In this document: positions 2,298-55,172 of the stretch, one piece after another
Layout: each line of letters opens with the position of its first letter
Numbering within the stretch: the stretch's first letter is position 1
Source: Candidatus Nomurabacteria bacterium
GTDB lineage: Bacteria; Patescibacteriota; Minisyncoccia; Phycocordibacterales; UBA9973
Reading direction: 5' to 3'
Assembly: GCA_003155695.1 (NCBI GenBank)
Contig: PMDZ01000008.1
Location: 39,362-103,361, forward strand
DNA length: 64,000 nt
Translations under genes and position numbers: made by a program
Notes under the pieces: model-generated
Told to the model about the DNA's origin: nothing
The model's input: only the letters and a program-made list of their open reading frames with translations
Database searches by the model: none

Positions 2298-3104
2298 TTA
2301 TTTTATTTCTCCTTTAAATACAAAAGTTGCCGGACCACGGAGAATAATTTCTCCTTCGGGATTTTCCGATAAGAATAATTTTCCGCCAGGGAATTCCAGG
2401 GTAATTTCTTTCAGATTTTTGTTTTTCTTTTTCAGGATTGCATAGACAGCGCAAGCGCCGGTGCCACAAGCAAGAGTAAGGCCACAACCACGCTCCCAGA
2501 CTTTCACTTTGCAATAATCATCTTTGACTTTTTCAACGAACTCAACGTTTATTTTATTTGGAAAGTGATAATCTTTTTCTACCTCTGGCCCAACCGAAGG
2601 TACATCATAATCATCCAAGCTATCAACCATAACTACGGCATGCGGATTACCCATAGAGACACATTCAAAAGTCAAACCTTCTATACTAAGTTCTCCGCTC
2701 GGAAAGTCAGGGTGAGTAAAGACCGGAGCTCCCATATTAACGCTATAGGTGTCATCTTTGTTTATTTTTACATTTTTTATTCCGGCCCTAGTATCGATAT
2801 TTAATTCTTTCGGATGAGATTCCTGTCTGCTGGTAGGCGATGTTGTTTGCTCAAGGTAGAATTTAGCCGTGCAACGTACACCATTTCCACACATTTCAGC
2901 ATCGGTTCCATCGGAATTATAATAATTCATAAAACAATCTCCTTTTTTTGAAGACTCAAGTAATATAATTCCATCAGCACCGATGCCAAAATGCCTATCG
3001 CAAATGGATTTTATATACTCTCCCTTGAGTTTTATATCTCCCTTTAGGTTATTTATCATTATAAAGTCATTCCCATCGCCTTCATATTTTTCGAATTTAA
3101 TCAT
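2298..3104 (-). CDS. dapF: diaminopimelate epimerase
   Basis: 268 aa starting MIKFEKYEGDGNDFIMINN, with two conserved Cys regions (CGNG.. / ACGTGACA). It converges on gap. Confidence 0.85.
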   Translation of the reverse strand: MIKFEKYEGDGNDFIMINNLKGDIKLKGEYIKSICDRHFGIGADGIILLESSKKGDCFMNYYNSDGTDAEMCGNGVRCTAKFYLEQTTSPTSRQESHPKELNIDTRAGIKNVKINKDDTYSVNMGAPVFTHPDFPSGELSIEGLTFECVSMGNPHAVVMVDSLDDYDVPSVGPEVEKDYHFPNKINVEFVEKVKDDYCKVKVWERGCGLTLACGTGACAVYAILKKKNKNLKEITLEFPGGKLFLSENPEGEIILRGPATFVFKGEIK

Positions 3105-3137
3105 GTGTTTATTATAACCTATATTATAATTATATAA

Positions 3138-3250
3138 AAATTTGAAATAATCTTCTCAAAGAGCACGGATATTTTTCTGCTGAAAAATTCCTCGTGTTCG
3201 CTCCGTCGAGCCTCACAAGTCTCTTTGATAAGGCTATTTCAAATTTTTGA
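3138..3250. repeat. copy A of a ~110-bp palindromic intergenic element (reverse orientation relative to copy B at 11310-11420)
   Basis: The 33-nt core cacggatatttttctgctgaaaaattcctcgtg is identical to the reverse complement of 11361-11393. The flanks are ~85% identical. Its outer arms aaaaatttgaaata / tatttcaaattttt pair with each other. Confidence 0.6.
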
Positions 3251-3272
3251 TTTATTGCTATAATGTAAACAT

Positions 3273-3749
3273 ATGAAAATTTATATAGGAAGTGACCATG
3301 CAGGTTATGAATTAAAACAAAAACTCAAGGTTTTTATACAAGAACTTGGATATGAAGTGGACGATAAGGGTGCTTTTGCTTTAAATAATGACGATGATTT
3401 TACCGACTTCATAAAGCCGGTGGCCAAAGCAGTGGCGAGCAATGAAGGTAGTGTGGGTGTAATCCTAGGTGGTTCGGGAGAAGGTGAAGCAATATGCGCA
3501 AATAGATTTAAAGGAATTAGAGCAGTTGTTTATTATGGCGGAAAAGAATTTCAAAAAGATATTCTTGGAAATAAAATGGGAATAGTTGAAGGCGCACGCC
3601 TACACAACAACGCAAACATTATTTCTTTGGGTGCCCGTTTCCTAACTCTTAAAAAAGCAGAACAAGCGGTTAAACTTTTCTTGCAAACACCATTTTCAAA
3701 TGATGAACGTCACATTAGAAGAATTAATAAGCTAGAACTTGAAGCCTAG
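3273..3749 (+). CDS. rpiB: ribose-5-phosphate isomerase B
   Basis: MKIYIGSDHAGYELKQKL N-terminus and the RpiB/LacAB fold signature (GGSGEGEAICANR). 158 aa. Confidence 0.85.
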   Translation: MKIYIGSDHAGYELKQKLKVFIQELGYEVDDKGAFALNNDDDFTDFIKPVAKAVASNEGSVGVILGGSGEGEAICANRFKGIRAVVYYGGKEFQKDILGNKMGIVEGARLHNNANIISLGARFLTLKKAEQAVKLFLQTPFSNDERHIRRINKLELEA

Positions 3750-11084: not shown

Positions 11085-11303
11085 ATGAAAAAAGATATAC
11101 ATCCAAAATATAATTCAAAGTCTGAAGTTACCTGCGCTTGCGGGGCAACTTTTACTGTTGGCTCAACCATGGATAAAATTAATGTTGAAATCTGTAGTCA
11201 ATGCCACCCTTTCTATACCGGAAATGAAAAAGTTTTGGATACTGCCGGACGCGTAGACCGCTTCAAGAAGCGCGCACTTGCATCGAAAAAAGCAAAGAAA
11301 TAG
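11085..11303 (+). CDS. rpmE: ribosomal protein L31
   Basis: MKKDIHPKY.. and C..C....C zinc-ribbon motifs. 72 aa. Confidence 0.9.
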
Positions 11304-11309
11304 TGTACA

Positions 11310-11420
11310 AAAAGCATAAATAGTCTTATCAGAGGGACTTGGGAGCGCGACGGCGCGAGCACGAGGAATTTTTCAGCAGAAAAATATCCGTGCCCTCTGG
11401 GAAGAGCTATTTATGCTTTT
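11310..11420. repeat. copy B of the ~110-bp palindromic intergenic element
   Basis: Outer arms aaaagcataaatag / ctatttatgctttt pair with each other. The internal cagaggga..ccctctgg and the central tttttcagcagaaaaa palindrome also pair. It is ~85% identical to the reverse complement of 3138-3250. Confidence 0.6.
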
Positions 11421-11454
11421 TGTTTTGGCCAAATATCTTCGTAAACTTTATCAA

Positions 11455-11502
11455 TAAAAAAGTCCTCGGATGAGGGAGGACGAGGAGCCAGACATTTTTT
11501 CT
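11455..11502 (+). repeat. hairpin motif copy 1 (core GTCCTCGGATGAGGGAGGACGAGGAGCCAGAC flanked by A6/T6 outer stem)
   Basis: One of four near-identical cores in the window. Located ~45 nt upstream of the prfA ATG. Confidence 0.7.
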
Positions 11503-11542
11503 TGAAAAAGTTTATTACGATATATATGTTATAATTTATTAT

Positions 11543-12514
11543 ATGACTTTTGATTTAGAACAATTAAAGAAAGACCACAAAACCAGTTACTTCGCTCTTG
11601 AATACGAAAGGCTTTTGGGTGAGGAAAAAAAGGTCAATGACATGGTTAGCGAGGATGAAAGTTTGAGAGAATTGGCCGATGAAGAACTGCAAAATATCAT
11701 TTCTCAAAAAGAAGCCATTGAAAGACAACTTGAAGAAATGATAAAGAAGGAAGATGAGGAAGAAGAATTCCCGAACGAAATAATCTTGGAAGTTCGCGCA
11801 GGAGCCGGAGGTGATGAAGCTTCTCTTTTCGCTTGGGAACTGGCCCACATGTACGAAAGATATGCCGAGAAGCAAAAGTGGAATTGGAAAGTCATCGATG
11901 ATTCGTCAAATGATGTTGGTGGTTACAAAGAAGCGACATTCGAAATAAAAGGCAAGGATTGTTATAAAGCTCTCCGCTATGAGACAGGAGTTCATCGTGT
12001 CCAGCGTGTCCCGTCAACCGAAAAGAACGGTCGTATCCATACCTCAACTGCATCGGTTGCCATTCTGCCACTTCGCAAAAAGACCAAAATTGTCATCAAT
12101 CCGGCCGACCTGGAAATCGAGTATTCACGTTCAGGCGGAGCCGGCGGGCAAAATGTCAACAAAGTTGAAACTGCTGTTCGGCTGATTCACAAACCGACAG
12201 GAATTGATGTTCGCTGTACAACAGAAAGAAAACAACTGGCCAACCGTGAAAAAGCCATGATGATTCTTGTTGCCAAATTGCAGTTATTGCAAGACGAAGA
12301 AGAAGCCAGTAAATATTCCGCCAATCGCAAAAATCAAATTGGGACAGGAGACAGAAGTGAGAAAATTCGTACCTACAATTTCCCACAAGACCGCATTACC
12401 GACCACCGCATCAAACAATCCTGGTCAAACATTCCGGTCATCATGGACGGCAATATAGATAAAATAATCGACGCTCTATCTTCCGGTGTTGTTGGAAATG
12501 CTGAAGAAGAATAA
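11543..12514 (+). CDS. prfA: peptide chain release factor 1
   Basis: GGQ motif ([11 protein letters not shown]). The RF1-type tripeptide region [17 protein letters not shown] has PST in the position of P(A/V)T. Linked to rpmE as in many bacteria. Confidence 0.85.
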
Positions 12515-50365: not shown

Positions 50366-52753
50366 ATGAAAAATTATACAAAACCGGTGTTTGTGAAAGT
50401 AGGAATGTTTATTGTTGTTATGTCACTTTTTATTGGTTCATCAGCTGTATCGGCTGCTGTCAATGTCGTTCCGAATGCTAATCTTGAGACCCAATCAAGT
50501 GGTAACCAAAATATTCCTGACCAATGGGAAAAGGGAACCAGCGACTTAGGTGACGTTGTTACTTACACATACCCAGTAACTAGTGCTCCAGTATCCGATA
50601 TTTCAAGTGGTAATGCCGCAAAAATTGAAGCTACTTCTTTTACTTCAGATAAGGGCGCAAAATGGTATTTCACTCCGGTTCCTGTAACTCCTGGTGAGCG
50701 ATATTCTTTCAGCGATTCATATATTGCTACATCCAATACTGATTTAGTTGGAGTTTTCTGTACAGATATTTATCAAAATAATTGTACTTATGATACAACT
50801 CATTCTGTATCTGCAACACCAACTGATACATGGGAACAAGCAACCGCTTCTTTTACGGTACCGATAGGTAAAACATATATGACGGTGTTTCATCGTATTC
50901 AAGTAGCTGGTTCACTAACTATTGATAATTATAATTTAACACTCATACCTCCACCATCTCCATTTGCATCCGGATTCGTAACACTTACTTTTGATGACGG
51001 ACTATTGTCACAATTTAATAATGCTCTATCTGTACTAAATGCCGGAAATGCAAAAGCAACTTTCTTCATTCCAACCCATTTTATTTCTGGTTTTTCTATT
51101 GTTAATCCTTCGTTTGAAAATGCGCCTGGAGGTAATCCAATTGATTGGACTCAATCGGGGGGAACATCTTCTTCAACATTTACTCTTTCTTCTGATTCTC
51201 ATAATGGTGGTGCTTGGGCAGGACAAGTCAGTGATACTGTGACTACTTTAAGTAATGCTGCTTGGTCTTTCACTCCGGTAACTGTTATTCCTGATACTAT
51301 TTATTCTTTTAAAGAATATTATAAGAGTACAGCAAATTCAGAACTCGTTGCGAAAGTAACTTTAGACGATAACTCTACTACAATAACTGCTGACGTTGTG
51401 GATAGTGGTGGCGCAACTTTAGGTATTAGCGTACCGCTTCCTGCATCTGCTGATTACACTCAAACTCAAGCATATTTCTATATGCCTACTAATGCTAAAT
51501 CAGTCACAATATTAAATAAATTAACTAGCGCTGGAACTCTTACTATCGACGATGTGTCACTTGGCAGAGAAGGATATATGACGAGTGACCAAGTGCTATC
51601 ACTTCAATCAGCAGGAAATGAAATCGGTGGCCATACACAAACACACCCAGACCTCACAACAGTTACACCAACAGATCTGACAAATGAAATTAGTGGTGGT
51701 CGCCAGGACCTTATTAGTAATGGCATAACTGCTCCAGTATCGTTTGCGTATCCATTTGGCGCATACAATACAACAATTCAAGACGCTCTCACAAGTGCAG
51801 GTTACACATCTGGTCGTACCGTTTTGCCATCTGGATTTAATGATTTATCTACTCCAAAACTGTCTCTCTTCTCTCAATCAATAGATGCAAATACTACACT
51901 AGATCAAGTAGCTAACTGGATTGCTGAAGCCAAAGCAAATAAGAGCTGGTTGATTTTAACATTCCATGATATACAAAATGATATTACAGGAACTCCATAT
52001 GGAACGACACCACAAATCCTTGCTGGAATTATTTCAGACGTAACATCAGAAGGTCTTCCTATAAAAACTGTTAGCGAGGGAGTTGAATTAATGGGTAATG
52101 TAACTCCACCAACTGACCCAGTTTGTACGCTTCCTCAAGTATTAGAGAATCATGTATGTGTTACTCCAGTAGTTACTGACCCAGTTTGTACACTTCCTCA
52201 AGTATTAGAGAATCATGTATGTATCACGCCGACAAGATGCGCATACAATTCGGACCTGTTAGCAAGCGACCCACTCTGTGTTGCTCCGGCAATGTGTCAA
52301 TACAATTCTAACTTGTTAGCGAGCGATAAAGATTGTGTAGCTCCGAAAACACCAACGCATCATATATCGTCAGGTTCTATTCCGATGTCTACCCAAGGTA
52401 GTGTTCTCGGCGCCAAGACTTCTTGTGGAATTTATATAGATAAGTTTTTAGGAATGGGACTTAAGGATAATGATGTGGAAGCTGTTGAAAAAATTCAAAC
52501 TTTCTTAAATGACAATATGTCTGCAGGACTTGTTGTTGATGGATTTTTTGGTGCTATGACCAATGATGCACTTAAAGCCTTCCAGCTTGCGCATGCAGAC
52601 AAAGTCTTGGAACCTTGGGGTCTGACTGCTCCAACCGGCATATTCTACTTAACCACTCAAACGGCAGTGAATAATATAATGTGTCCGGCCTTAGATTTGC
52701 CAATCCCAGTACTCACTCCGATAGCTCTAAATCCATTGTTTCCCAAAAAATAG
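50366..52753 (+). CDS. secreted CE4 (NodB) polysaccharide deacetylase with N-terminal CBM-like domain, a second CBM-like domain inserted into the catalytic domain, and a C-terminal PG-binding module
   Basis: NodB motifs are TFDDG; H-T-Q-T-H; AYPFG; L-T-F-H-D. About 215 aa separate motif 1 from motif 2. The C-terminal 130 aa are paralogous to the ends of the 22797 and 25084 proteins. Confidence 0.7.
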   Translation: MKNYTKPVFVKVGMFIVVMSLFIGSSAVSAAVNVVPNANLETQSSGNQNIPDQWEKGTSDLGDVVTYTYPVTSAPVSDISSGNAAKIEATSFTSDKGAKWYFTPVPVTPGERYSFSDSYIATSNTDLVGVFCTDIYQNNCTYDTTHSVSATPTDTWEQATASFTVPIGKTYMTVFHRIQVAGSLTIDNYNLTLIPPPSPFASGFVTLTFDDGLLSQFNNALSVLNAGNAKATFFIPTHFISGFSIVNPSFENAPGGNPIDWTQSGGTSSSTFTLSSDSHNGGAWAGQVSDTVTTLSNAAWSFTPVTVIPDTIYSFKEYYKSTANSELVAKVTLDDNSTTITADVVDSGGATLGISVPLPASADYTQTQAYFYMPTNAKSVTILNKLTSAGTLTIDDVSLGREGYMTSDQVLSLQSAGNEIGGHTQTHPDLTTVTPTDLTNEISGGRQDLISNGITAPVSFAYPFGAYNTTIQDALTSAGYTSGRTVLPSGFNDLSTPKLSLFSQSIDANTTLDQVANWIAEAKANKSWLILTFHDIQNDITGTPYGTTPQILAGIISDVTSEGLPIKTVSEGVELMGNVTPPTDPVCTLPQVLENHVCVTPVVTDPVCTLPQVLENHVCITPTRCAYNSDLLASDPLCVAPAMCQYNSNLLASDKDCVAPKTPTHHISSGSIPMSTQGSVLGAKTSCGIYIDKFLGMGLKDNDVEAVEKIQTFLNDNMSAGLVVDGFFGAMTNDALKAFQLAHADKVLEPWGLTAPTGIFYLTTQTAVNNIMCPALDLPIPVLTPIALNPLFPKK

Positions 52754-52802: not shown

Positions 52803-55133
52803 ATGAAAAATCATATGAAATTGATTCCAATAAAACTAGGAATGTTGGTTGCTTTAATGGCGTTTTTGGTCGGCCCATCAAAAATATTCGCTTTAAGTTC
52901 CAGCAACCTTGTTCCAAACCCTCTTCTTGAAACTCCGTCGTCGGGTGATCCAAATATTCCCGACCAATGGGCAAAGGGGTATATTGACGCTAGCGATGTT
53001 GTTACTTACACATATCCAGTAACTAGTGCTCCCACATCCGATATATCTAGTGGTAATGCCGCAAAGATTGTCGCCACTACCGTTGTCTCCGGTACCGATG
53101 CCAAATGGTATTTTACTCCGGTTCCCGTAACTCCAGGCCAGCGATATGTTTTCAGTGATTCATATATATCCACAGTTGGTACGGATTTGGTTGCGTCATT
53201 CTGTACCGATATATTTCAAAATGGTTGCAGCTATGATACTTCTCAATCCATACCGGCAACACCAACCGATGTGTGGAAACAATCTTCGGCTTCATTTACG
53301 GTACCGATAGGCAAAACATATATGACGGTATTTCACCGCATACAAACAGCTGGTTCACTAACTATTGATAATTCTAGTTTGATACTCGTTCCACCACCAT
53401 CTCCATTTTCATTTGGATTTGTAACACTTACCTTTGATGACGGACTATTATCACAATTTACCAATGCCTTACCTGTCTTAGTTGCCGGAAGCGCAAAAGG
53501 AACTTTCTTTATTCCGACTCACTTTATTTCCGGTTTTTCTATTATTAATCCATCGTTTGAAAATGCAAATGGTATTAATCCAACCAACTGGTCTCATTCC
53601 GGTTCTTTAACTGCGACATACACATATTCTTCGGACGCCCATAACGGCACAAAGAGCGGACAAGTTGCTTCAACAACAGCTCTTAGTAATGCAGCCTGGT
53701 CTTTCGCACCGGTAACTATTATTCCCGATACTATTTATTCTTTCCAGGAATACTACAAGAGTACGGCAAGTTCGGAACTTGTTGCGAAAATGACTTTGAA
53801 TGACGGTACAACAATAAATGCCGATGTTGTGGATAGTGTGGGCAATACATTAGATAATAAAGTAACACTGCCTGCTGCCTCAAGCTATACTTCAACTCAA
53901 GCATATTTTTATATGCCACTTAACGCAAAATCAGTGACAATATTAAATCAGTTGACCGGTATCGGTACTTTAACTATTGACGATGTAACTCTGGGCAGAG
54001 AAGGGTATATGACCAGTAATCAAGTATCAACACTTCAAACCAAAGGAAATGAAATTGGCGGTCATACACAAACTCATCCAGATCTTACAACACTTACAAG
54101 TACCGATATGACGAATGAAATAAATGGTGGACGCCAGGATCTTCAGAGCAATGGTATAACTCCGGTTCTTTCATTCGCATATCCATTCGGTGCATATAAT
54201 ACAGCTATTCAGCAAGCACTCACAAATGCAGGTTATTCATCTGGTCGTACCGTTTTGCCATCCGGATTTAATGATTTATCTACTCCAAAATTATCCCTTT
54301 TCTCTCAAACAATAGATGCCAATACAACACTCGGTCAAGCGGAAAATTGGGTTGCTGAGGCAAAAGCAAACAAGAGTTGGTTGATTTTGACTTTCCATGA
54401 TATACAGAGCGACCTCACCAATCTTCCGTATGGAACAACACCAAAAAATCTTACGGATATTATTTCCTATATAAATACCGAGGGTATGCCGATAAAGACT
54501 ATCAGTGAGGGTGTTGCGTTGATGGGGGGGACACCGACTCCAACAGATGTCTGCCCGAACGTAACTGGTATGCAAACAACAGGTCCTTGCGCCGATACAC
54601 TCTGTGTGGCACCAAAAACCTGGAGTATATTAACTCAAACTTGTGTTGCTCCAGCTCCAGTTGATGTCTGCCCGAACGTAACCGGAGTTCAAACAACAGG
54701 TCCTTGCGCTGACACTCTTTGTGTGGCACCAAAAACTTGGAATATGACAACTCAAACTTGTGTTGCTCCAGCTCCAGTTGATGTCTGTCCGAATGTAACA
54801 GGAGTTCAAACAAAAAGTCCTTGCGCTGACACTCTTTGTGTATCACCAAAAACTTGGAATATAACAACTCAAACTTGTGTTGCTCCGGTTGATGTCTGTC
54901 CGAATGTAAGAGGAATACAGACAAAAGGTCCTTGCGCTGACACTCTTTGTGTGGCACCAAAAACTTGGAGAATATTAACTCAAACTTGTATTGCACCGGC
55001 TTCGGCGGATATTTGTCCCAAGGTAAAAGGAGTTCAAACAACAGGTCCTTGTGCCGATACTCTTTGTGTGGCACCAAAAACTTGGAGTATATTAACTCAA
55101 ACCTGTATCAAGTGGATATTTAGCTCAAAGTAA
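52803..55133 (+). CDS. paralogous CBM/CE4 deacetylase with C-terminal 5x tandem 39-aa Cys repeats (no PG-binding module)
   Basis: The N-terminal ~560 aa are collinear with the 50366 product, with the same NodB motifs. The C-terminus is DVCPNVTGVQTTGPCADTLCVAPKTW..TQTCVAPAPV repeated five times. Confidence 0.7.
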   Translation: MKNHMKLIPIKLGMLVALMAFLVGPSKIFALSSSNLVPNPLLETPSSGDPNIPDQWAKGYIDASDVVTYTYPVTSAPTSDISSGNAAKIVATTVVSGTDAKWYFTPVPVTPGQRYVFSDSYISTVGTDLVASFCTDIFQNGCSYDTSQSIPATPTDVWKQSSASFTVPIGKTYMTVFHRIQTAGSLTIDNSSLILVPPPSPFSFGFVTLTFDDGLLSQFTNALPVLVAGSAKGTFFIPTHFISGFSIINPSFENANGINPTNWSHSGSLTATYTYSSDAHNGTKSGQVASTTALSNAAWSFAPVTIIPDTIYSFQEYYKSTASSELVAKMTLNDGTTINADVVDSVGNTLDNKVTLPAASSYTSTQAYFYMPLNAKSVTILNQLTGIGTLTIDDVTLGREGYMTSNQVSTLQTKGNEIGGHTQTHPDLTTLTSTDMTNEINGGRQDLQSNGITPVLSFAYPFGAYNTAIQQALTNAGYSSGRTVLPSGFNDLSTPKLSLFSQTIDANTTLGQAENWVAEAKANKSWLILTFHDIQSDLTNLPYGTTPKNLTDIISYINTEGMPIKTISEGVALMGGTPTPTDVCPNVTGMQTTGPCADTLCVAPKTWSILTQTCVAPAPVDVCPNVTGVQTTGPCADTLCVAPKTWNMTTQTCVAPAPVDVCPNVTGVQTKSPCADTLCVSPKTWNITTQTCVAPVDVCPNVRGIQTKGPCADTLCVAPKTWRILTQTCIAPASADICPKVKGVQTTGPCADTLCVAPKTWSILTQTCIKWIFSSK

Positions 55134-55172
55134 GAGGAATACAAACAACAGGTCCTTCATGTGTTTTTTTCT
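54546..55172 (+). repeat. tandem DNA repeat, period 117 bp (one 111-bp unit), about 5.3 copies; last copy degenerate and extends past the stop codon
   Basis: Unit starts at ~54546, 54663, 54780, 54891 and 55008. A decayed partial unit (..gtaagaggaatacaaacaacaggtcct..) follows the TAA at 55133. Confidence 0.8.

What the first reader, a model, noticed from the sequence alone, without database searches (positions are those of the whole stretch)
3138..3250. Two copies of a ~110-bp imperfect palindromic element (REP/MITE-like or structured RNA) in opposite orientation, with arm covariation
3138-3250 and the reverse complement of 11310-11420 share an identical 33-nt centre (cacggatatttttctgctgaaaaattcctcgtg, itself centred on the palindrome TTTTTCTGCTGAAAAA). 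Their flanks are ~85% identical.

In each copy the outermost arms are mutually complementary but differ between copies. Copy A uses aaaaatttgaaata / tatttcaaattttt. Copy B uses aaaagcataaatag / ctatttatgctttt. The long hairpin is therefore maintained by compensatory change.

Both are intergenic, in the dapF/rpiB divergent region and between rpmE and prfA. Copy B lies right next to hairpin-motif copy 1.
Basis: seen in the sequence. Interest (0 to 1): 0.65.

Follow-up and report, generated by a model that had tools for sequence, protein, structure and literature searches.

The report
Y-shaped palindromic insertion element of Patescibacteria
The two hairpins are copies of a previously unlisted small palindromic repeat found across many Patescibacteria genomes, which sits between genes and also in frame inside essential genes, much like the selfish palindromic elements of Rickettsia.

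Summary
Copies at 3136-3248 (+) and 11307-11423 (-) share an identical 34-nt centre and fold into long hairpins.

They belong to a large family. One strict pattern scan hit more than 119 loci, almost all Patescibacteria (Minisyncoccota/Paceibacteria). The anatomy is a long copy-specific stem P1 closing a three-way junction with two conserved hairpins, P2 (loop UGCU, bulged U) and P3 (loop CGUC). All stems covary. No Rfam family, phage, plasmid or paper matched.

It does not behave like a cis-regulatory RNA:
- Orientation relative to genes looks random and flips between sister genomes at the orthologous rpmE-prfA site.
- G-U pairs are not enriched.
- About 17% of copies lie inside genes (pheT, tsaD, dus, nifS-like, argS, uvrD, PGM, comEC) and are read through in one frame.

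It is not a classical MITE either: the ends are the least conserved part, there are no target-site duplications, and no transposase lies nearby.

Arm complementarity is at least partly mechanical. Recent duplicates share only the core plus about 10 bp of stem. In one tsaD copy an arm is an inverted copy of native host codons.

Best reading: a selfish, non-autonomous, Rickettsia-palindromic-element-like insertion element whose arms grow by fold-back copying. A functional RNA or DNA role for the core is not excluded.

The parts
3136..3248 (+). Copy A, whole element (long hairpin with three-way junction)
   Evidence: Sequence; inverted repeat I11, 3136-3163 / 3221-3248; covariance model R1, 98.5 bits; folds.
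3136..3164 (+). Copy A, P1 5' arm. The outer 9 nt AAAAATTTG are copy-specific; the inner part AAATAATCTTCTCAAAGAGC belongs to the 'AATAG' subfamily stem.
3165..3165 (+). Copy A, near-invariant junction A between P1 and P2
   Evidence: Alignment A2, column 24.
3166..3194 (+). Copy A, P2 hairpin CGGATATTTTTC-TGCT-GAAAAATTCCTCG (bulged T, loop TGCT)
   Evidence: Covariation of this stem is seen in divergent family members.
3195..3217 (+). Copy A, P3: TGT/ACA base, TC/TC internal loop, GCTC-CGTC-GAGC hairpin
3219..3248 (+). Copy A, P1 3' arm (A3218 is the second junction A)
11307..11423 (-). Copy B, whole element, in the opposite orientation to copy A
   Evidence: Sequence; R1, 101.8 bits; folds.
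11392..11423 (-). Copy B, P1 5' arm (ACAAAAAGCAT outer, AAATAGCTCTTCCCAGAGGGC inner)
11362..11390 (-). Copy B, P2 hairpin, identical to copy A
11340..11361 (-). Copy B, P3 (TGC..(C)CA base, GCGC-CGTC-GCGC hairpin)
11307..11338 (-). Copy B, P1 3' arm, ending in ATGCTTTTTGT. On the + strand it starts 4 nt after the rpmE stop codon.
2298..3104 (-). dapF (context of copy A)
   Evidence: ORF; PF01678 on the same gene in strain and relative contigs.
3273..3749 (+). rpiB (context of copy A). TGCTATAAT lies between the element and the ATG.
   Evidence: ORF; PF02502; sequence.
11085..11303 (+). rpmE (context of copy B)
   Evidence: PF01197.
11543..12514 (+). prfA (context of copy B)
   Evidence: PF03462 and PF00472.

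Best explanation
Both window copies belong to a multi-copy family of small (about 100-160 bp), non-autonomous palindromic insertion elements found across many Patescibacteria (Minisyncoccota) lineages.

**The conserved module.** It is about 57 nt plus a short closing stem. As a single strand it folds into a Y or T shape. P2 is an A/T-rich hairpin with loop UGCU and a bulged U. P3 has a 3-bp base, a UC/UC loop and a 4-bp GC hairpin with loop CGUC. The two hairpins are joined to the stem by single A residues.

**How it behaves.**
- Shown: the module is duplicated within genomes, gained or lost between close relatives, and inverted in place.
- Shown: insertions inside genes persist only where they keep the reading frame. 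The core has no stop codon in 5 of 6 frames.
- Shown in one case, supported in others: the long outer stem P1 is not a conserved terminal repeat. At least part of it is built from local host sequence by inverted duplication.
- Inferred: that duplication arises by fold-back or template switching during replication. The same process, acting on long inverted repeats around a short spacer, would explain the orientation flips and the near-perfect Watson-Crick arms.
- Inferred: the module is recognised as folded single-stranded DNA by an enzyme encoded elsewhere in the genome, so it spreads as selfish DNA. This is the behaviour of Rickettsia palindromic elements.

**In this window.** The two copies are intergenic passengers. 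Copy B sits on the A5...T5 terminator-like hairpin after rpmE. Copy A sits on a similar A/T-flanked palindrome in the dapF/rpiB divergent region.
For: **Family and anatomy**
- More than 119 strict-pattern loci, nearly all Patescibacteria, with several genomes carrying 2-3 hits.
- Further divergent copies raise the density to about 1 per 30-40 kb in the DNA in hand.
- Structure: 92.9% of cells paired, 29 of 31 pairs with double changes, 0 of 500 shuffles as high, and slid controls at 38-55% paired. RNAalifold independently finds P1, P2 and P3b.

**Not orientation-bound**
- Flanking-gene configurations are 35/24/21/21.
- At the orthologous rpmE-prfA site the element is - in the window, L134 and L132. 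It is + in L130, L133 and L124, and absent in L131 and L145, which carry a plain terminator hairpin.
- Sister genomes L133 and L134 differ in orientation. L145, sister of the window genome, lacks the element (tree).

**Gain and duplication**
- Copy A is absent at dapF-rpiB in all five relatives examined but is fixed and invariant in every strain contig that spans it.
- Its core is identical to that of copy B, while the orthologues of copy B have diverged cores.
- Within-genome near-identical pairs exist: L064/L068, L036 x2 and L036/L037.

**Inside genes**
- 17 of 19 gene-spanning cases are read through in one frame.
- There are at least 9 independent sites in both orientations, in PheT, TsaD, Dus x2, class-V aminotransferase, ArgS, UvrD, PGM and ComEC.
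- Homologues without the insert exist.
- Only about 17% of copies are genic.

**Arms**
- No G-U excess: 3074 Watson-Crick pairs, 122 A.C and 60 G.U.
- In 15 'AATAG' subfamily copies, the 10 nt outside the shared boundary are complementary at 8.7 of 10 positions, against 3.5 in controls. They are unrelated between copies and there are no direct repeats.
- L064 and L068 share 74 identical nt but have unrelated self-complementary outer arms.
- In L051 tsaD one arm contains the native FPLPRPMLKS codons. The other arm is their imperfect inverted copy. It forms a net insertion of 17-18 residues on one side only, compared with L117 and L107.

**Precedent.** In-frame palindromic elements in Rickettsia are reviewed in PMC10969869, which cites Ogata 2000 and 2002.
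Against: - No transposase, integrase or other recurrent non-housekeeping gene lies near the copies in about 0.8 Mb of flanks. None lies in the annotated parts of the window (about 8-13 kb and 15-56 kb). The proposed trans-acting enzyme is hypothetical.
- Transposition is not observed directly. It is inferred from presence/absence and from near-identical copies.
- The core shows the classic signature of a functional folded single strand: covarying stems with conserved loop and bulge nucleotides.
- The canonical core is kept at the same sites in pheT (7 genomes) and tsaD (5 genomes) although the host proteins are only 55-64% identical. This is unusual for neutral junk. The strict search pattern biases the sample towards canonical cores.
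- Inverted duplication of host sequence is demonstrated clearly in one copy (L051) and suggestively in another (L113). It is not shown for the window copies themselves.
- L131 and L145 share a plain hairpin at the empty rpmE-prfA site. This equally fits insertion into pre-existing hairpin loops.
Confidence: 0.6

Rival explanations
1. The element is a functional structured RNA module. It would be a protein-binding or processing signal, or a small RNA, whose three-way junction is the active part and whose P1 merely closes it. Copies would act on whatever transcript contains them.
For: - Covariation in all three helices, with conserved loops UGCU and CGUC, a bulged U and junction A residues.
- Pair 23-80 is C-G in 88 copies and U.G in 27, never another combination.
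- The core is conserved across many Patescibacteria lineages.
- The canonical core is retained at orthologous sites inside essential genes.
- RNA folds are very stable.
Against: - No Rfam family matches, even at E<=10.
- Orientation relative to neighbouring or host genes looks random and flips between sister genomes at one site. Many copies would therefore be transcribed as the antisense.
- G.U is not enriched on the modelled strand: 60 against 122 A.C in P1.
- P1 averages about 30 nearly perfect base pairs. That is far more than a closing helix needs, and by general knowledge such a duplex is an RNase III-type substrate.
- Orthologous copies in close relatives have diverged or swapped cores.
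- Outer arms are made from host sequence.
Confidence: 0.17
2. The element is a host-serving DNA-level site. It would be a cruciform or hairpin recognised by a Patescibacteria-specific protein, for instance for lagging-strand priming, nucleoid organisation, recombination or DNA uptake. Such a site works in either orientation.
For: - Orientation independence.
- Strict Watson-Crick pairing on both strands.
- Stable single-stranded DNA folds.
- Conservation of the core across the sampled lineages.
- Moderate and fairly even density, about 1 per 30-40 kb.
Against: - Close relatives lack the element at orthologous sites without any visible replacement.
- Copies cluster side by side in some loci.
- Copies occur inside essential genes, where a host site would be costly.
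- Orthologous copies decay.
- No candidate partner gene was identified.
Confidence: 0.1
3. The module is a mobile element that specifically integrates into the apical loop of pre-existing hairpins such as terminators. Known IS elements target REP loops in this way. On this view the outer arms are simply the old hairpin stems rather than new inverted duplications.
For: - The empty rpmE-prfA sites of L131 and L145 carry the plain hairpin AAAAAGCTC-loop-GAGCTTTTT. Relatives carry A4-5 N4-5 [element] N4-5 T4-5 at that position.
- L130 has a core-less 27-bp palindrome at the dapF-rpiB site.
- The outer flanks of 15 subfamily copies are complementary.
- L064 and L068.
Against: - Genic copies have arms as long as intergenic ones, mean about 30 nt. 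Hairpins of that length pre-existing inside conserved coding regions are implausible.
- In L051 the extra arm is a net insertion copied from native codons.
- The stems of filled sites (GCAT, TCGC, TCCAC, CCACC) differ from the conserved empty-site stem GCTC.
- Only about 20% of copies have A/T runs at the stem base.
Confidence: 0.1
4. The element is a classical MITE, derived from a DDE-transposase insertion sequence, with conserved terminal inverted repeats and target-site duplications. Alternatively, the two copies are a chance local duplication.
For: The element is small, non-coding, palindromic and multi-copy.
Against: - The termini are the most variable part.
- No direct repeats flank the copies.
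- No related insertion sequence was found.
- Chance is excluded by the size of the family.
Confidence: 0.03

Closest known systems
Rickettsia palindromic elements (RPE); Ogata et al. 2000 and 2002, as summarised in PMC10969869
   Same: - Palindromic repeats of about 100-150 bp without their own genes.
- Scattered between genes and inserted in frame into unrelated housekeeping genes, where they add a peptide segment.
- Host is a reduced-genome bacterium.
- Mobilisation mechanism unknown.
   Different: - The host is a different phylum, and no sequence relation was tested.
- Here the conserved part is the centre, a three-way junction with two defined hairpins, and the ends are copy-specific.
- At least four different reading frames and both orientations are used, so no conserved peptide results.
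- Orientation flips at an orthologous site, and the arms are built from host sequence.
REP / REPIN elements mobilised by RAYT (Y1 HUH) transposases, and IS200/IS605-derived palindrome-associated elements (PMC3116915, PMC3733652; otherwise own knowledge)
   Same: - Recognition would be of a folded single strand rather than of terminal inverted repeats.
- No target-site duplication.
- Hairpin stems covary while loop and bulge bases stay fixed.
- The P3 loop is CGTC, the tetranucleotide that tags one REP superfamily.
   Different: - REPs are GC-rich hairpins of 20-40 bp whose own sequence is the conserved repeat. A REPIN is two such REPs.
- Here the long arms are not conserved at all.
- No RAYT or TnpA gene was seen in any DNA in hand.
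- No conserved target tetranucleotide lies next to the element.
Terminator-like and intergenic bacterial MITEs (SPRITE, ERIC, Correia, Coxiella QMITE2; PMC10969869, PMC5896051)
   Same: Small structured repeats that often sit in 3' regions on or as terminator hairpins. Both window copies are flanked by A5 and T5 runs.
   Different: Those elements have conserved ends and usually direct repeats. This family has neither, and only about 20% of its copies have T runs at the stem base. The simple terminator scan does not call the window copies.
Parvovirus/AAV inverted terminal repeat, a T-shaped hairpin with flip and flop forms (own knowledge; analogy of form, not membership)
   Same: A long stem capped by two small internal hairpins in a three-way junction of about 100-145 nt. 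The asymmetric tip exists in two orientations relative to the flanks, because hairpin-primed or fold-back DNA synthesis inverts it.
   Different: The AAV repeat is a genome terminus of a linear single-stranded DNA virus, processed by Rep. This element is internal to bacterial chromosomes, multi-copy, and has no associated Rep gene and no viral contig hits.
Quasipalindrome correction and inverted-repeat-mediated template switching during replication (own knowledge; a process, not an element family)
   Same: It explains three features without selection. Arms stay almost perfectly Watson-Crick. A palindrome can extend by copying the opposite flank. The spacer between close inverted repeats can invert.
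   Different: It explains the arms and the flipping only. It does not explain the conserved core or its spread to new sites.
Integron attC sites (own knowledge)
   Same: Imperfect palindromes of 57-141 bp recognised as folded single-stranded DNA, with structure conserved more than sequence. Some have branched tips.
   Different: In attC the conserved boxes (RYYYAAC / GTTRRRY) lie at the base of the stem and the tip is variable, which is the reverse of this element. Those boxes are absent here, and so are cassettes and an integrase.

Membership tests
Classical MITE (IS-derived, DDE type) | Terminal inverted repeats whose sequence is conserved among copies | tested here: not met
   The arms are unrelated between copies and the centre is the conserved part.
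Classical MITE (IS-derived, DDE type) | Direct target-site duplications flanking each copy | tested here: not met
   In 15 subfamily copies the flanks are inverted complements, not direct repeats. Recent paralogous pairs show none.
Classical MITE (IS-derived, DDE type) | A related autonomous IS with matching ends in the same genomes | tested here: inconclusive
   None was found in about 0.8 Mb of flanks or in the annotated parts of the window. Whole genomes were not available.
Rickettsia-palindromic-element-like 'protein-coding palindromes' (functional class) | Palindromic repeat of about 100-150 bp, multi-copy, without its own gene | tested here: met
Rickettsia-palindromic-element-like 'protein-coding palindromes' (functional class) | Copies inserted in frame in unrelated housekeeping genes, with insert-free homologues | tested here: met
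   17 of 19 cases are read through. The hosts were identified by Pfam. Insert-free homologues exist. The two window copies themselves are intergenic.
Rickettsia-palindromic-element-like 'protein-coding palindromes' (functional class) | Sequence homology to the RPE-1 to RPE-10 families of Rickettsia | not tested
   No RPE sequences were available in the tools. The host phylum differs, so common descent is not claimed.
REP / REPIN with RAYT | Short GC-rich REP hairpin as the conserved unit, occurring singly or as an inverted pair | tested here: not met
   The conserved unit is a 57-nt three-way junction and the inverted arms are copy-specific.
REP / REPIN with RAYT | RAYT (Y1 transposase) gene in the genome, often flanked by REPs | tested here: inconclusive
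   None was seen in the DNA in hand. Complete genomes were not searched.
Any Rfam RNA family | Match to a curated covariance model | tested here: not met
   Only a tRNA passes the gathering score in the window. At E<=10 only weak plant-miRNA and snoRNA-type chance matches overlap copy A.
Cis-acting or independent structured ncRNA (generic) | Covariation supporting a specific fold | tested here: met
   The same signal is expected for a folded-DNA element. For P1 it is partly mechanical.
Cis-acting or independent structured ncRNA (generic) | Strand specificity: G-U tolerated but A-C not, and a constant orientation relative to transcription | tested here: not met
   P1 has 60 G.U against 122 A.C. 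Orientation looks random and flips at an orthologous site.
Cis-acting or independent structured ncRNA (generic) | A transcript with defined ends | not testable with these tools
   No expression data are available.
Intrinsic (rho-independent) terminator | GC-rich stem immediately followed by a U run, located downstream of genes | tested here: inconclusive
   The window copies have A5/T5 at the stem base, and copy B starts 4 nt after the rpmE stop codon. The stem base is A/T-rich and the consensus scan calls neither copy. Across the family only about 20% of copies have T runs and 21 of 101 lie in divergent regions.
Integron attC | Conserved R''/R' core sites at the base of the hairpin, with cassette and integrase context | tested here: not met
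   The base of the stem is variable and lacks GTTRRRY/RYYYAAC. No integrase or cassette context is present.

The most novel reading that the evidence does not exclude
The conserved Y-shaped core may be the recognition module of an undescribed kind of mobile DNA specific to Patescibacteria. It would be recognised as a folded three-way junction. It would spread without terminal repeats or target duplications, build its own long arms from host sequence by fold-back synthesis, and flip in place. Alternatively, the same core may be a host-used single-strand motif, RNA or DNA, bound by a lineage-specific protein. Either way a new enzyme-substrate pair in this little-understood group would be implied.
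Probability: 0.25. Interest if true: 0.85.

Novelty: new variant of a known kind. Interest (0 to 1): 0.68.

Why it matters
[quoted passage not shown] Finding the same behaviour in Patescibacteria would show it arose independently in another reduced-genome lineage. Here it affects core translation and tRNA-modification genes (pheT, tsaD, dus, argS).
- **Annotation.** Gene callers place small 'hypothetical proteins' on intergenic copies. Some contigs end inside the element. Inserts of 30-55 residues in essential proteins could be mistaken for lineage-specific domains.
- **Method.** Arm 'covariation' in a palindromic repeat is not by itself evidence for a selected RNA structure, because arms can be generated by inverted duplication of host DNA.
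- **Tools and next questions.** The covariance model R1, built here from alignment A2, can be rebuilt from that alignment and used as a marker for comparative and population studies. The conserved core poses a testable question: which protein recognises it.

Tried and rejected
**Searches that found nothing**
- Rfam at gathering score on the whole window and at E<=10 on copy A gave nothing relevant.
- The viral contig scan and BLAST against phage and plasmid collections gave no matches.
- Six literature searches found no report of the element. Two promising papers did not mention it.

**Ideas tested and rejected**
- Intron or other RNA-level removal of genic copies. Rejected because 17 of 19 gene-spanning cases keep one open frame.
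- A conserved functional peptide. Rejected because at least four frames in two orientations are used.
- An associated gene. All-against-all clustering of 810 neighbouring ORFs gave only housekeeping families explained by synteny.
- Terminator function as a family property. Only about 20% of copies have A/T runs at the stem base.

**Attempts that did not work**
- A census of host proteins using the in-frame peptide profile.
- An exact empty allele of copy A. All strain contigs with an identical RpiB carry the element unchanged, and the nearest other RpiB is only 78% identical.
- The closest PrfA relative (96% identical) has a 130-nt rpmE-prfA spacer, but its DNA could not be fetched.

**Suggestive only**
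- A stop-free core in 5 of 6 frames occurs in 6% of shuffles.
- The excess of A.C over G.U in P1 (p about 5e-6) is not corrected for relatedness of the copies. I did not use it to assign a strand.
Full report
**1. Observation**

The two elements exist as described, with small corrections. Copy A spans 3136-3248 on the + strand and copy B spans 11307-11423 on the - strand.

They share an identical 34-nt centre, GCACGGATATTTTTCTGCTGAAAAATTCCTCGTG. Overall identity is 91 of 115 aligned positions.

Seven base pairs differ between the copies by changes on both sides. Four are consecutive in the outer stem, two are in the inner stem and one is in a small GC hairpin (read).

Each copy folds far better than shuffled sequence on either strand, as RNA (z -6.9 to -9.0) and as DNA (z -6.6 to -9.4). 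A full-model scan of the window finds no third copy.

Copy A lies in the divergent dapF/rpiB spacer. Copy B lies 4 nt after the rpmE stop codon, upstream of prfA.

**2. Source and family**

The window is part of a 161-kb metagenomic scaffold, ENA ERZ28653468 scaffold_66. Relatives of its proteins are labelled Candidatus Paceibacterota, which NCBI now names Minisyncoccota.

I scanned the species-representative genome collection with CGGANNTTTTTCNNNNGAAAAANTCCNCG. All but one chance hit in a Flavobacterium gene were Patescibacteria MAGs. They include Paceibacteria, Nomura-, Taylor-, Yonath-, Vogel-, Wildermuth-, Lloyd-, Nealson- and Zambryskibacteria, Minisyncoccia, and bins auto-labelled Saccharibacteria. 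Several genomes contributed two or three loci.

A covariance model was built from 88 of the copies (R1). It found about 20 further divergent copies in the same loci, sometimes two to four within 8 kb. The density in the DNA in hand is roughly one copy per 30-40 kb.

Nothing matched in Rfam, viral contigs, phage or plasmid records or the searchable literature.

**3. Anatomy**

In the orientation of copy A the parts are as follows.
- P1 is a long stem. Arms average about 30 nt and range from 9 to more than 45. About 88% of positions are Watson-Crick, and the sequence is unrelated between copies.
- A single near-invariant A follows.
- P2 is CGGAUAUUUUUC-UGCU-GAAAAAUUCCUCG, with a bulged U.
- P3 has a three-pair base (UGC:GCA, AGC:GCU, UGU:ACA, AGU:ACU), a UC/UC internal loop and a four-pair GC hairpin with loop CGUC.
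- A second single A leads back into P1.

On 121 copies, 92.9% of cells are paired and 29 of 31 pairs show double changes. No shuffle of 500 reaches these values, and sliding the partners drops pairing to 38-55%.

P2 is invariant in the pattern-selected copies by construction. It covaries in the others, for example UUUUUC/GAAAAA becomes CCGCC/GGCGG or AAAUCU/AGAUUU, while the loop UGCU and the AUA/UU bulge region stay fixed. RNAalifold independently recovers P1, P2 and the P3 hairpin.

A second junction variant, GGUCA-CGGA...UCCGCG-ACC..., occurs in 17 loci.

**4. Behaviour that argues against a cis-acting RNA**

Orientation relative to flanking genes shows no preference. The counts are 35 and 24 tandem, 21 convergent and 21 divergent.

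About 17% of copies lie inside protein genes. In 19 cases, open frames of at least 90 codons reach the core from both sides. In 17 of these a single frame runs through the element.

The hosts were confirmed by Pfam:
- PheT: seven genomes share one site in the linker before the FDX-ACB domain.
- TsaD: five genomes share one site.
- Dus: two different sites.
- A class-V aminotransferase: two genomes.
- ArgS, UvrD, a phosphoglucomutase and ComEC.

Homologues without the insert are present among the loci. Both orientations and at least four reading frames are used, so no peptide is conserved. The core lacks stop codons in five of six frames, which 6% of shuffles also achieve.

In P1, G.U is not favoured: 60 G.U against 122 A.C and 3074 Watson-Crick pairs.

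**5. Turnover at the window's own sites**

I fetched syntenic loci from relatives whose PrfA is 87-94% identical. A tree from five proteins gives (L131,(L130,((L133,L134),(window,L145)))).

| Genome | State at the rpmE-prfA site |
|---|---|
| window, L134, L132 | element in - orientation |
| L130, L133, L124 (more distant) | element in + orientation |
| L131, L145 | no element; plain hairpin AAAAAGCTC-loop-GAGCTTTTT |

Sister genomes therefore differ in orientation and in presence.

The inner P1 of these copies is homologous, but their P2 and P3 sequences are different family variants. This points to replacement, conversion or re-insertion.

At the dapF-rpiB site only the window genome has the element. 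L131, L133, L134 and L145 have none, and L130 has a core-less perfect 27-bp palindrome.

Copy A is fixed and invariant in every strain contig that spans it. Its core is identical to that of copy B, although the orthologues of copy B have diverged. This indicates recent duplication or homogenisation within this lineage.

**6. What the arms are**

In 15 copies of the 'AATAG...CTATT' subfamility stem type, to which both window copies belong, I examined the 10 nt just outside the shared boundary. They are complementary to each other at 8.7 of 10 positions, against 3.5 in mismatched controls. They are unrelated between copies and there are no direct repeats.

Two copies 2.8 kb apart in one contig (L064, L068) are identical over 74 nt, that is, the core plus about 10 bp of stem. 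They nevertheless carry unrelated 15-20 bp outer arms that are complementary within each copy. Slow compensatory evolution cannot explain this.

Other within-genome pairs share about 20-nt or the whole roughly 41-nt arms and show no target duplication.

The clearest case is the tsaD copy of L051.
- The arm on the C-terminal side runs into the native, universally conserved FPLPRPMLKS codons.
- The opposite arm is an imperfect inverted copy of those codons.
- That opposite arm forms a 17-18-residue insertion on one side only, compared with L117 and L107.

A similar overlap with native SFP codons is seen in the aminotransferase copy L113. Genic arms are as long as intergenic ones. Arms can therefore be created by inverted duplication of adjacent host DNA.

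I infer fold-back or template-switch synthesis at the hairpin. The same process would keep arms nearly perfect and would invert a short spacer between long inverted repeats. The plain hairpins at empty sites also allow insertion into pre-existing hairpin loops, so both routes may operate.

**7. Interpretation**

The best-supported account is a selfish, non-autonomous palindromic insertion element that behaves like the Rickettsia palindromic elements, with an unusual architecture. The centre is the conserved three-way junction, and the ends are copy-specific and partly host-derived.

It fails the defining tests of a classical MITE and of REP/REPIN, attC and Rfam families (see the membership table).

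Four points remain unexplained:
- how the module reaches new sites;
- which enzyme, if any, recognises it, since no candidate lies in about 0.8 Mb of flanks or in the annotated parts of the window;
- why the core loops and bulges are so well conserved;
- why canonical cores persist at the same sites of pheT and tsaD in genomes whose host proteins are only 55-64% identical.

These points keep a functional single-strand role, RNA or DNA, alive as a minority view.

**8. Verdict for the window copies**

Both are real members of this family. Neither shows evidence of regulating its neighbours.

Copy B sits on the A5/T5 hairpin that serves as the rpmE terminator position in relatives. Copy A sits just upstream of the rpiB TGCTATAAT box.

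The 'structured RNA maintained by compensatory change' reading is not favoured.

Noticed in passing
It has a conserved asymmetric 32-nt core, GTCCTCGGATGAGGGAGGACGAGGAGCCAGAC, and each copy sits at the tip of a copy-specific long hairpin. This is the same architecture as the element studied here. Two copies lie between ATP synthase genes (alpha/gamma and gamma/beta). All four have the same orientation as the surrounding genes, unlike the main element.
   Followed up: partly
L004 (JGI 3300029984 contig), downstream of the copy of window 11431-11524: In one strain contig the sequence is identical to the window through copy B and the second motif. It then switches to a different downstream gene (165 aa instead of prfA). 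The synteny break falls exactly at the end of the second motif.
   Followed up: no
L130 120-180 (dapF-rpiB spacer of a relative): A perfect 27-bp palindrome with a 4-nt loop, ACAAGAAAGATTATATTAAAAATTTAT-ACTC-ATAAATTTTTAATATAATCTTTCTTGT. It has no conserved core and lies at the site where the window has copy A. Its left arm resembles the window's left flank. It may be a core-deleted remnant or a de novo inverted duplication.
   Followed up: partly
L018, L035, L042, L043, L055, L061, L065, L085, L094, L096, L098, L099, L103-L105, L127: A second junction class of the element. P2 is extended by GGUC/GACC, with CCGCG instead of CCUCG, and P3 has a GCC/GGC base...GGTCACGGATATTTTTCTGCTGAAAAATTCCGCGACCCCGCCTCGCGCCGTCGCGCTCCGGC... 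It scores only 35-49 bits with model R1.
   Followed up: partly
L030, L032, L071, L106 (P3 region of their copies): Some copies carry an extra hairpin of 15-30 nt inserted inside P3, for example TGCGGGGGTCTGCTGGAAAGCAGACGACGCGCTCC. The small GC hairpin is evidently a tolerated or targeted site for nested insertions.
   Followed up: no
L040 1214-1472; L059 1523-1741; L034 6672-6899; L033 5991-6219; L119 6797-7032; L120 6439-6829: Copies often occur as close neighbours, 20-200 nt apart, either head to head or in tandem. This suggests local hopping or a preference for sites next to existing copies.
   Followed up: no
window 3255-3275 and 11525-11545: rpiB and prfA start only 8 and 10 nt after extended -10-like boxes (TGCTATAAT, TGTTATAAT), with no visible Shine-Dalgarno sequence. 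The mRNAs may be leaderless or nearly so. The same layout appears in the relatives.
   Followed up: no
Proteins P0121-P0148 (public databases): Gene callers have annotated 34-72-residue 'hypothetical proteins' that are simply translations of intergenic copies of the element. One example is a Taylorbacteria entry, A3H57_04075.
   Followed up: no
L003, L141, L143 (contig ends): A few short metagenomic contigs of the same population stop inside copy A or copy B. This is consistent with assemblies breaking at this repeat.
   Followed up: no
window 54537-55157: About six tandem copies of a unit of about 117 nt (74-100% identical) lie inside a large ORF (52803-55133). A paralogous large ORF lies just upstream (50366-52753), with repeat pairs D3, D5 and D8 about 2.4 kb apart. 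This is probably a repeat-domain surface protein pair.
   Followed up: no
L145 9884-9897 and 9987-10000: In the sister genome of the window, the 14-nt sequence AAGTTTAGGCGGAT occurs twice as a direct repeat about 100 nt apart, upstream of rpiB. The first copy forms a GC hairpin with its inverted copy. This is a different small insertion at the same spacer.
   Followed up: no
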